A DNA stretch of 64,000 nucleotides from Escherichia coli (GTDB taxonomy: Bacteria; Pseudomonadota; Gammaproteobacteria; Enterobacterales; Enterobacteriaceae), in NCBI RefSeq assembly GCF_030013595.1, contig NZ_CP122768.1; one strand, given 5' to 3'. The position numbers were made by a program. Positions within the stretch are counted from its first letter, which is position 1, and the number at the start of each line of letters is the position of its first letter. Shown piece by piece: positions 26,187-29,100 of this stretch.

Positions 26187-29100
26187 GGGTTAAGGCGTTA
26201 TTGTTGTATTCGGTATGCACACGCAACCGCCCGGCCACCAGCTTCCAGTTAATCCACGCGCCTAATGTCAGGCCAATAGCGATCCAGCTTTCGGAAATCC
26301 CGGAAAGAAAAACCGCGCCCGGCAACCCCATTAACAGCCAGCCGCTCATATCCGACGCCCCCGCCGATAATGCCGTCACGAATGGCCCAAGGCTACGACC
26401 GCCCAGAATATAGTCGTCGAAGTTTTTCGTTGATCGCCAGGCGATAAACCCAATCAATATCATGCCAAAGATATAGACACAAAATGTCACCAACATCGGT
26501 GTGCTAATAGCCATCTAAAGTCTCCAAAAAATTATTATCGGCAATGTCGAAACTTGCCGTTATATCTGCCACCGGAACGGGGTAACAGAGTTTATGTTTT
26601 ACCAGGGCGACCGTATCCTGCCGGAAGCGCTGGTTATTCACAATCGATTTAACACACCATTTACATTAAATTTTAGTGCTCAGCGACACTATTTTTCATC
26701 AGGTTGCACTCTCTCACATTTTTTGCGGTTGCACCTTTCAAAAATGTTAACTGCCGCAGAGAAAAAGTCTGAGTTATTTTTTTAATCCCTGTCATATCGA
26801 TTTCTTTTATTAACATTTCATTCATTTTTAAGCTTGCTACGCAGGTCACATTTAACATGGTTGCACAAAGTTGCAACATCATGGATATTTCACGATAACG
26901 TTAAGTTGCACCTTTCAGAACAACAGGAGTAATGGCATGGGAACCACCACCATGGGGGTTAAGCTGGACGACGCGACGCGTGAGCGTATTAAGTCTGCCG
27001 CGACACGTATCGATCGCACGCCACACTGGTTAATTAAGCAGGCGATTTTTTCTTATCTTGAACAACTGGAAAACAGCGATACTCTTCCGGAGCTACCTGC
27101 GCTGCTTTCTGGCGCTGCCAATGAGAGCGATGAAGCACCGACTCCGGCAGAGGAACCACACCAGCCTTTCCTCGACTTTGCCGAGCAAATTTTGCCCCAG
27201 TCGGTTTCCCGCGCCGCGATCACCGCTGCCTATCGCCGTCCGGAAACCGAAGCGGTTTCGATGCTGCTGGAACAAGCCCGCCTGCCGCAGCCAGTTGCTG
27301 AACAGGCGCATAAACTGGCATATCAACTGGCCGATAAACTGCGTAATCAAAAAAATGCCAGTGGTCGCGCAGGTATGGTCCAGGGGTTATTGCAGGAGTT
27401 TTCGCTGTCATCGCAGGAAGGCGTGGCGCTGATGTGTCTGGCAGAAGCGTTGTTGCGTATTCCCGACAAAGCCACCCGTGATGCGTTAATTCGCGACAAA
27501 ATCAGCAACGGTAACTGGCAGTCACACATTGGTCGTAGCCCGTCGTTGTTTGTTAATGCCGCCACCTGGGGGCTGCTGTTTACTGGCAAACTGGTTTCCA
27601 CCCATAACGAAGCCAGCCTCTCCCACTCGCTGAACCGCATTATCGGTAAGAGCGGTGAACCGCTGATCCGCAAAGGTGTGGATATGGCGATGCGCCTGAT
27701 GGGCGAGCAGTTCGTCACTGGCGAAACCATCGCGGAAGCGTTAGCCAATGCCCGCAAGCTGGAAGAGAAAGGTTTCCGTTACTCTTACGACATGCTGGGC
27801 GAAGCCGCGCTGACTGCCGCAGATGCACAGGCGTATATGGTTTCCTATCAGCAGGCGATTCACGCCATTGGTAAAGCGTCCAATGGTCGTGGCATCTATG
27901 AAGGTCCGGGCATTTCAATCAAGCTGTCGGCGCTGCATCCGCGTTACAGCCGCGCCCAGTATGACCGGGTAATGGAAGAGCTTTACCCACGTCTGAAATC
28001 ACTCACCCTGCTGGCGCGTCAGTACGATATTGGTATTAACATCGATGCCGAAGAGGCCGATCGTCTGGAGATCTCCCTCGATCTGCTGGAAAAACTCTGT
28101 TTCGAGCCGGAACTGGCAGGCTGGAACGGCATCGGTTTTGTTATTCAGGCTTATCAAAAACGCTGCCCGTTGGTGATTGATTACCTGATTGATCTCGCCA
28201 CCCGCAGCCGTCGCCGTCTGATGATTCGCCTGGTGAAAGGCGCGTACTGGGATAGTGAAATCAAGCGCGCGCAGATGGACGGCCTTGAAGGTTATCCGGT
28301 TTATACCCGCAAGGTGTATACCGACGTTTCATATCTCGCCTGTGCGAAAAAGCTGCTGGCGGTGCCGAATCTAATCTACCCGCAGTTCGCGACGCACAAC
28401 GCCCATACGCTGGCGGCAATTTATCAACTGGCGGGTCAAAACTACTATCCAGGTCAGTACGAGTTCCAGTGCCTGCATGGTATGGGCGAGCCACTGTATG
28501 AGCAGGTCACCGGGAAAGTTGCCGACGGCAAACTTAACCGTCCGTGTCGTATTTATGCTCCGGTTGGCACACATGAAACGCTGCTGGCGTATCTGGTGCG
28601 CCGCCTGCTGGAAAACGGTGCAAACACCTCGTTTGTTAACCGTATTGCCGACACCTCTTTGCCACTGGATGAACTGGTCGCCGATCCGGTCACTGCTGTA
28701 GAACAACTGGCACAACAGGAAGGGCAAACTGGATTACCGCATCCGAAAATTCCCCTGCCGCGCGATCTTTACGGTCACGGGCGCGACAACTCGGCAGGGC
28801 TGGATCTCGCTAACGAACACCGGCTGGCATCCCTCTCTTCTGCCCTGCTCAATAGTGCACTGCAAAAATGGCAGGCCTTACCAATGCTGAAACAACCGGT
28901 CACGGCTGGTGAGATGTCGCCCGTTATTAACCCTGCGGAACCGAAAGATATTGTGGGCTATGTGCGTGAAGCCACGCCGCGTGAAGTAGAACAGGCGCTG
29001 GAAAGTGCGGTTAATAACGCGCCAATCTGGTTTGCCACTCCTCCGGCTGAACGCGCAGCGATTTTGCACCGCGCTGCCGTGCTGATGGAAAGCCAGATGC

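What the first reader, a model, noticed from the sequence alone, without database searches (positions are those of the whole stretch)
26703..26910. Five GTTGCA PutA operator motifs in the put control region
Five GTTGCA motifs, including a palindromic GTTGCAAC, lie between putP and putA. This matches the known number of PutA operator sites and confirms an intact autoregulatory region.
Basis: partly seen in the sequence, partly recalled or inferred. Interest (0 to 1): 0.2.

Follow-up and report, generated by a model that had tools for sequence, protein, structure and literature searches.

The report
Known PutA operators between putP and putA
The five GTTGCA motifs are real and lie in the well-studied E. 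coli control region where the PutA enzyme-repressor switches off its own gene and the proline transporter gene, so this is an ordinary, already characterised feature.

Summary
GTTGCA occurs on the + strand at 26703, 26728, 26860, 26870 (extended to the palindrome GTTGCAAC) and 26905. All five lie in the 422-bp gap between putP (25006-26514, -) and putA (26937-30899, +). About 0.045 same-strand hits are expected in 208 bp, and no other 208-bp span of the window holds more than two. The window is E. coli. The gap differs from K-12 MG1655 at 2 of 422 positions, neither in a motif, and is at least 99% identical in 5367 of 5420 complete E. coli genomes. PutA residues 1-229, which include the ribbon-helix-helix DNA-binding domain solved in PDB 2gpe, 2rbf and 2ay0, are identical to K-12. 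That five GTTGCA operators are known (Zhou et al. 2008) rests on my memory, because that paper was not held in the library. One refinement comes from 75 distinct Enterobacteriaceae put regions. Sites 1-4 are invariant, with fixed 25-bp and 10-bp spacings. Site 5 exists only in the E. coli / E. whittamii clade. E. albertii, Salmonella, Kluyvera and some others instead have a site about 102 bp upstream of putA. The feature is already known and of low interest.

The parts
26515..26936 (.). put control region: the 422-bp gap between the divergent putP and putA genes, 38.6% G+C against 49.1% for the window
   Evidence: It is 420/422 identical to K-12 MG1655 and at least 99% identical in 5367 of 5420 E. 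coli genomes.
26703..26708 (+). Operator 1 (GTTGCA). The invariant block is AGGTTGCACT, 26701-26710. It lies 189 bp from the putP ATG.
   Evidence: The hexamer is exact in 75 of 75 species.
26728..26733 (+). Operator 2 (GCGGTTGCACCTTTCAAA). The invariant block is GTTGCACC. It starts 25 bp after operator 1. From memory, this is the operator crystallised with PutA52 (PDB 2rbf).
   Evidence: The hexamer is exact in 75 of 75 species. The operator 1-2 spacing is 25 bp in 74 of 75.
26860..26865 (+). Operator 3 (GGTTGCAC). It overlaps a -35-like TTGCAC (26861-26866) that sits 17 bp upstream of a conserved -10-like GATATT (26884-26889). The promoter assignment is my inference.
   Evidence: The hexamer is exact in 74 of 75 species.
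26870..26877 (+). Operator 4 (GTTGCAAC, palindromic extension). It starts 10 bp after operator 3. Together they form the 21-bp block GGTTGCACAAAGTTGCAACAT (26859-26879), conserved at 97% or more in every column.
   Evidence: The hexamer is exact in 75 of 75 species.
26905..26910 (+). Operator 5 (AAGTTGCACCTTTCAGA). It lies 32 bp upstream of the putA ATG and shares 15 of 16 bases with operator 2 and its downstream flank. It is present only in the E. coli / cryptic-clade / E. whittamii lineage.
   Evidence: (repeat D2). The hexamer is exact in 2 of 75 distinct sequences.
26937..30899 (+). putA, 1320 aa: trifunctional repressor, proline dehydrogenase and P5C dehydrogenase. Codons 1-52 (26937-27092) encode the ribbon-helix-helix DNA-binding domain.
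   Evidence: NF008772 at 2658 bits against a cut-off of 1750. PDB 2gpe, 2rbf, 2ay0 and 4o8a match residues 1-52. There are 8 substitutions against K-12, and the first is at residue 230.
25006..26514 (-). putP, 502 aa, the sodium/proline symporter and the second gene repressed by PutA
   Evidence: NF011948 at 1142 bits against a cut-off of 955.

Best explanation
These are the five operator sites of the E. coli proline-utilisation (put) control region. Established knowledge, not tested here: when proline is scarce, oxidised PutA is cytoplasmic, and its N-terminal ribbon-helix-helix dimer inserts a beta-sheet into the major groove at each GTTGCA. Sites 1-2 repress putP and sites 3-5 repress putA. 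When proline reduces the FAD cofactor, PutA moves to the membrane to act as an enzyme, the operators empty, and both genes are transcribed. Shown here: the position, number and orientation of the sites, their identity to K-12 DNA, an intact PutA DNA-binding domain, and very strong purifying selection on sites 1-4. Inferred from the sequence: sites 3 and 4 sit on the -35 and spacer of the putA promoter (TTGCAC, 17 bp, GATATT), so bound PutA would occlude RNA polymerase. Site 5 lies downstream of that promoter, in the leader, as an extra lineage-specific site.
For: The motifs are at the stated coordinates, all in one orientation. They are enriched about 100-fold over expectation, and no comparable cluster occurs elsewhere in the window. 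putA and putP are confirmed as equivalogs. PutA residues 1-52 match the solved PutA DNA-binding domain (2gpe, 2rbf, 2ay0). The gap is 420/422 identical to K-12, with both SNPs outside the motifs, and PutA residues 1-229 are identical. The region is near-invariant in 5420 E. coli genomes. In 75 distinct Enterobacteriaceae put regions, the site 1-4 hexamers are 100% conserved (74-75 of 75), against 63% mean identity for the rest of the gap. The operator 1-2 spacing is 25 bp in 74 of 75, and the contiguous operator 3-4 block, which fixes a 10-bp spacing, was found in all 75. Meanwhile the distance to the putA ATG varies from 60 to 200 bp. PMC5879082 states the repressor and membrane-switch mechanism for E. 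coli, Salmonella and P. putida PutA.
Against: No binding or expression data can be generated here. The primary paper defining the five operators was not readable, so the number, the consensus and the split between putP and putA repression rest on memory. Site 5 is not conserved outside the E. coli / E. whittamii clade, so comparative evidence does not support its function. The simple sigma-70 scan did not call a putA promoter at sites 3-4; my -35/-10 assignment matches only 7 of 12 consensus positions.
Confidence: 0.95

Rival explanations
1. The five hexamers are a chance cluster in an AT-rich gap and have no function.
For: GTTGCA is not enriched in the window as a whole (50 hits against 53.9 expected).
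Against: Five same-strand copies in 208 bp are seen against 0.045 expected, and none of 20000 shuffles of the gap reached more than 3. Four of the five are invariant in 75 species while the surrounding DNA is 63% conserved.
Confidence: 0.01
2. The conserved hexamers are primarily core promoter elements or sites for another factor such as CRP, rather than PutA operators. Site 3 is TTGCAC, which is -35-like. Site 1 overlaps a weak CRP-like GTTGCACTCTCTCACA.
For: TTGCAC followed 17 bp later by a conserved GATATT. CRP-like matches occur at 26703-26718 (3 mismatches) and 26835-26850 (2 mismatches).
Against: The same hexamer is invariant at four positions with different surroundings, which fits one protein recognising one motif. 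The CRP-like matches are weak. The promoter scan finds nothing significant (1 site against 1.6 expected). A dual role as operator overlapping promoter is what a repressor site is expected to have, so this does not compete with the main explanation.
Confidence: 0.03
3. Only four of the five are real operators. Site 5 is a recent chance match that does little.
For: Site 5 is absent in E. albertii, Salmonella and all other genera sampled (2 of 75). Its 3-bp upstream flank (TAA) differs from operator 2 (GCG); from memory, the flank affects affinity.
Against: It is kept in E. coli, three further Escherichia species representatives and E. whittamii (L002-L006), and the gap is at least 99% identical in 5367 E. 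coli genomes. It shares a 13-bp exact core, GTTGCACCTTTCA, with operator 2. From memory, Zhou et al. 2008 found three sites necessary for putA repression.
Confidence: 0.12

Closest known systems
E. coli K-12 put control region with five PutA operators (Zhou et al. 2008, J Mol Biol 381:174; from memory, with the citation seen)
   Same: Same locus, same gene arrangement, 420/422 identical DNA, all five GTTGCA hexamers and their flanks identical, and PutA residues 1-229 identical.
   Different: Two SNPs (26844 G for T, 26917 A for T), both outside the hexamers and outside the 3-bp upstream flanks. There are 8 PutA and 4 PutP amino-acid substitutions, none in the DNA-binding domain.
Put control regions of Salmonella, Klebsiella and other Enterobacteriaceae (Hahn et al. 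1988; Chen and Maloy 1991; citations seen)
   Same: Divergent putP and putA. Operators 1-4 are identical in sequence, orientation and spacing (25 bp, 130-136 bp, 10 bp).
   Different: These regions lack operator 5. Salmonella, Kluyvera and E. albertii have an inverted site (TGCAAC) about 102 bp upstream of putA. Pseudocitrobacter, E. mori and others have a direct one there. Some Pluralibacter-like species have one at about -42. Most have only four sites.
Pseudomonas putida PutA ribbon-helix-helix domain and its DNA complex (PDB 2jxg, 2jxh, 2jxi)
   Same: The DNA-binding domain is homologous (E 2.3e-20 over residues 1-45). From memory, it recognises the same GTTGCA motif.
   Different: It is from a different genus, and its control region was not examined here.
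Classical ribbon-helix-helix repressors (Arc, MetJ, CopG)
   Same: Same fold. CopG-family chains are weak hits at E 2e-4. They are repressors that bind operators overlapping promoters.
   Different: In PutA the domain is fused to a 1320-aa membrane-associating enzyme, and the signal is the redox state of the cofactor rather than a small co-repressor. From memory, one dimer binds one hexamer rather than forming cooperative tetramers on tandem sites.

Membership tests
E. coli put control region / PutA operator set | Sites lie in the gap between divergently transcribed putP and putA | tested here: met
   putP 25006-26514 (-) and putA 26937-30899 (+) are both NCBIfam equivalogs above cut-off. All five motifs lie within 26515-26936.
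E. coli put control region / PutA operator set | Five copies of the hexamer GTTGCA | tested here: met
   Five + strand copies, plus one - strand copy from the palindrome. That five is the published number is from memory; the paper was not held.
E. coli put control region / PutA operator set | Sequence identity to characterised K-12 put control DNA | tested here: met
   420/422 identical to NC_000913.3 1078883-1079304, with the SNPs at 26844 and 26917 outside the motifs.
E. coli put control region / PutA operator set | Cognate PutA carries the N-terminal ribbon-helix-helix DNA-binding domain (trifunctional type) | tested here: met
   NF008772, the trifunctional regulator model, covers 1-1320 at 2658 bits. 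Residues 1-52 match PDB 2gpe, 2rbf and 2ay0 at E about 5e-31 and are identical to K-12.
E. coli put control region / PutA operator set | Sites conserved in orthologous put regions, as expected of functional operators | tested here: inconclusive
   Operators 1-4 are exact in 74-75 of 75 species with fixed spacing. Operator 5 is exact in only 2 of 75 and is restricted to the E. coli clade.
E. coli put control region / PutA operator set | PutA binds the sites and represses putA and putP, with relief by proline | not testable with these tools
   This needs gel shift, footprinting or reporter assays. The general mechanism is stated in PMC5879082.

The most novel reading that the evidence does not exclude
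The ancestral enterobacterial put control region has four invariant PutA operators. The fifth operator of the E. coli model system is a recent addition in the E. coli / E. whittamii lineage. It may have replaced an older fifth site about 102 bp upstream of putA, which survives as TGCAAC in E. albertii, Salmonella and Kluyvera but is degraded to TGCTAC (26835-26840) in E. coli. That would be a small case of binding-site turnover inside a textbook autoregulatory circuit. It would imply that putA repression is wired slightly differently in E. coli than in its relatives.
Probability: 0.4. Interest if true: 0.2.

Novelty: already known. Interest (0 to 1): 0.08.

Why it matters
For annotation, it confirms that this window carries a standard, apparently intact E. 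coli putP-putA regulatory module; nothing here needs a new explanation. The only added value is comparative. Four operators are among the most conserved non-coding bases of the locus across Enterobacteriaceae. The fifth, which belongs to the published E. coli model, is lineage-specific. That is worth remembering when the E. coli operator map is transferred to Salmonella, Klebsiella or Enterobacter.

Tried and rejected
Retrieving the primary literature failed. Zhou et al. 2008 (pmid 18586269 / PMC2665032), Zhou et al. 2008b (PMC2666929), two ids recalled from memory for reviews of PutA and proline catabolism (PMC5650515, PMC2664619), Chen and Maloy 1991 (PMC207072) and PMC4285992 were not held. 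Full-text searches for PutA with GTTGCA, for PutA52, and for 'operator sites' returned nothing that states the number or sequence of operators. The sigma-70 scan of 26450-27000 gave one promoter-like site on the - strand (26699-26670), no more than shuffles give and in a poorly conserved stretch, so it was not used. An Rfam scan of 26300-27100 at E up to 1 found nothing, so there is no support for a known structured RNA element in the gap. A CRP consensus scan gave only weak matches with 2-3 mismatches, so no CRP site is claimed. I tried to place a putP promoter around operators 1 and 2 by eye (TTAACA at 26750-26745 on the - strand) but found no convincing -10, and left it open.

Full report
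**Observation.** The sequence shows GTTGCA on the + strand at 26703, 26728, 26860, 26870 and 26905. The fourth copy is extended to the palindrome GTTGCAAC, which produces one extra - strand hit at 26872. The coordinates in the finding (26703-26910) are exactly the outer limits of the five copies. GTTGCA is not over-represented in the window overall: there are 50 hits on both strands against 53.9 expected from shuffles. The local cluster is nevertheless extreme. About 0.045 same-strand hits are expected per 208 bp, giving a Poisson P of about 1.4e-9, or about 9e-7 after correcting for all positions and both strands. No other 208-bp span of the window holds more than two hits. None of 20000 dinucleotide-preserving shuffles of the gap itself gave more than three.

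**Context.** The motifs lie in a 422-bp gap (26515-26936) with 38.6% G+C, against 49.1% for the window.
- On the left is a 502-aa ORF on the - strand (25006-26514). It is the sodium/proline symporter PutP (NF011948, 1142 bits, cut-off 955).
- On the right is a 1320-aa ORF on the + strand (26937-30899). It is the trifunctional PutA (NF008772, 2658 bits, cut-off 1750).
- PutA residues 1-52 match the solved PutA DNA-binding (ribbon-helix-helix) domain entries 2gpe, 2rbf and 2ay0 at E about 5e-31. They also match the P. putida domain 2jxg at 2e-20.

**Identity with characterised DNA.**
- The gap is found in 5420 of 5426 complete E. coli genomes, at 99% identity or more in 5367 of them.
- Against K-12 MG1655 (NC_000913.3 1078883-1079304) it is 420/422 identical.
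- The two differences (26844 G for T, 26917 A for T) lie outside every hexamer and outside the three upstream flanking bases.
- PutA is identical to K-12 through residue 229.
- The window therefore carries the standard E. coli put control region.

**Mechanism.** PMC5879082 summarises the accepted model for E. coli, Salmonella and P. putida. At low proline, PutA binds operator sites between the divergent putA and putP genes and represses both. [quoted passage not shown]

The following points are my recollection of Zhou et al. 2008 (J Mol Biol 381:174):
- there are five operators;
- each contains GTTGCA;
- three are needed for putA repression and two for putP repression;
- the crystal structure 2rbf is of PutA52 on operator 2, with contacts to the hexamer plus three flanking base pairs.

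The paper appears in a reference list but was not held in the library, and no searchable paper states these details. The layout here fits that account. Two sites (26703, 26728) lie towards putP and three (26860, 26870, 26905) lie next to putA.

**Independent comparative test.** A scan of one genome per species with PutA residues 1-200 returned 80 loci, all from Enterobacteriaceae or unnamed relatives. In 78 of them both putA and putP starts could be placed. This gave 75 distinct gap sequences including the window, after five near-identical E. coli-clade loci were set aside.

| Feature | Result across 75 sequences |
|---|---|
| Operators 1, 2 and 4 hexamers | exact in 75 of 75 |
| Operator 3 hexamer | exact in 74 of 75 (E. 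whittamii has GTTGCG) |
| Rest of the gap | 63% mean identity to the window |
| Operator 5 hexamer | exact in 2 of 75 |
| Operator 1-2 spacing | 25 bp in 74 of 75 |
| Operator 3-4 spacing | 10 bp in all |
| Operator 2-3 spacing | 130-136 bp |
| Operator 4 to putA ATG | 60-200 bp |

- The conserved blocks are AGGTTGCACT (operator 1), GTTGCACC (operator 2) and a 21-bp block, GGTTGCACAAAGTTGCAACAT, covering operators 3 and 4.
- Because the distance to the putA ATG varies while the inter-site spacings are fixed, the sites are tied to each other and to the promoter, not to the coding sequence.
- This is strong, literature-independent evidence that sites 1-4 are functional.

**Operator 5 is different.**
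- It is exact only in E. coli, three further Escherichia species representatives (L003-L005) and E. whittamii.
- E. albertii, Salmonella and every other genus have unrelated sequence at that position.
- Fourteen of the 75 carry an exact site about 102 bp upstream of putA instead. Ten have TGCAAC on the - strand, including E. albertii, Salmonella and Kluyvera. Four have GTTGCA on the + strand, including E. mori and a Pseudocitrobacter.
- At that place E. coli has the one-mismatch TGCTAC (26835-26840).
- A few Pluralibacter-like species have a site at about -42.
- Most species have just four sites. 'Five' is therefore correct for E. coli but is not a family constant. A turnover of the fifth site is possible but unproven.

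**Placement relative to promoters (inference only).** A conserved GATATT (26884-26889) lies 17 bp downstream of TTGCAC (26861-26866), which is inside operator 3. Operator 4 falls in the spacer. If this is the putA promoter, PutA on operators 3 and 4 would block RNA polymerase, and operator 5 would sit in the early transcribed region. The match to consensus is weak (7 of 12) and the simple promoter scan did not report it. I could not place a convincing putP promoter at operators 1 and 2.

**Rivals.**
- Chance is excluded by the statistics and by conservation.
- A reading in which the hexamers are only promoter or CRP elements is not supported. CRP-like matches have 2-3 mismatches, and four identical invariant hexamers in different contexts point to one recognition motif.
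- The idea that site 5 is a weak or non-functional newcomer cannot be excluded from sequence alone. I give it about 0.12.

**Verdict.** This is an already known, well-characterised regulatory region in a standard E. coli allele. 'Intact' is justified only in the sense of identity to the characterised sequence and an unchanged DNA-binding domain. Interest is low. The one refinement is that four operators are ancient and invariant while the fifth is specific to the E. coli lineage.

Noticed in passing
window 26673-26699 (- strand); longer forms reach 26795 and 26882: The small ORF ymdG (MKNSVAEH*) starts 4 nt from operator 1, in the putP direction. RefSeq K-12 annotates it as 8 aa. VanOrsdel et al. 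2018 reported a tagged 40-aa form that would be translated across operators 1 and 2 (PMC6001520). PGAP calls a 69-aa hypothetical protein in the same frame in many strains. Adams et al. 2021 list ymdG-putP among uORF candidates with an RNA 3' end less than 200 nt downstream (PMC7815308). The 8-aa start codon exists only in Escherichia, in 3 of 75 species.
   Followed up: partly
window 26835-26840 (TGCTAC) and the aligned position in L007, L013, L017, L031, L081 and others: A semi-conserved element around TTGCAA about 102 bp upstream of putA is an exact GTTGCA site in 14 of 75 species, in either orientation, but has one mismatch in E. coli. This may be turnover of the fifth site with operator 5.
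   Followed up: partly
window 26649-26654, 26745-26751, 26810-26815, 26852-26857: Four TTAAC(A) elements are 97-100% conserved across 75 Enterobacteriaceae put regions. Two of them form a perfect 9-bp inverted repeat (AAATGTTAA / TTAACATTT, I8). They resemble -35 hexamers, but their role is not established.
   Followed up: partly
window 26714-26734 and 26846-26866: TCACATTT lies 14 nt upstream of both operator 2 and operator 3 (21-nt direct repeat D1, 76% identical), and TCAC is near-invariant in both places. Together with TGCTACGCAGGTCACA (26835-26850, 2 mismatches to the CRP consensus), this hints at a repeated module or a CRP half-site.
   Followed up: no
window 26728-26743 and 26905-26920: Operators 2 and 5 share 15 of 16 bases, including the downstream flank GTTGCACCTTTCA. 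Part of that flank (CCTTT..AGAACAAC) is already present in E. albertii, which lacks the hexamer.
   Followed up: partly
window 24362-25005, compared with L001 1820-4491: O157:H7 strain PV15-279 has a 1.3-kb hypothetical gene between efeU and putP. The window lacks it: the gap there is only 644 bp. So the window is not from that lineage, despite an identical put control region.
   Followed up: no
L047 (K. oxytoca), L051 (Cedecea), L062 and L067 (Raoultella/Enterobacter), L072: Some species carry insertions of 50-130 bp between the operator 3-4 block and the putA ribosome-binding site. This lengthens the putA leader without disturbing the operators.
   Followed up: no
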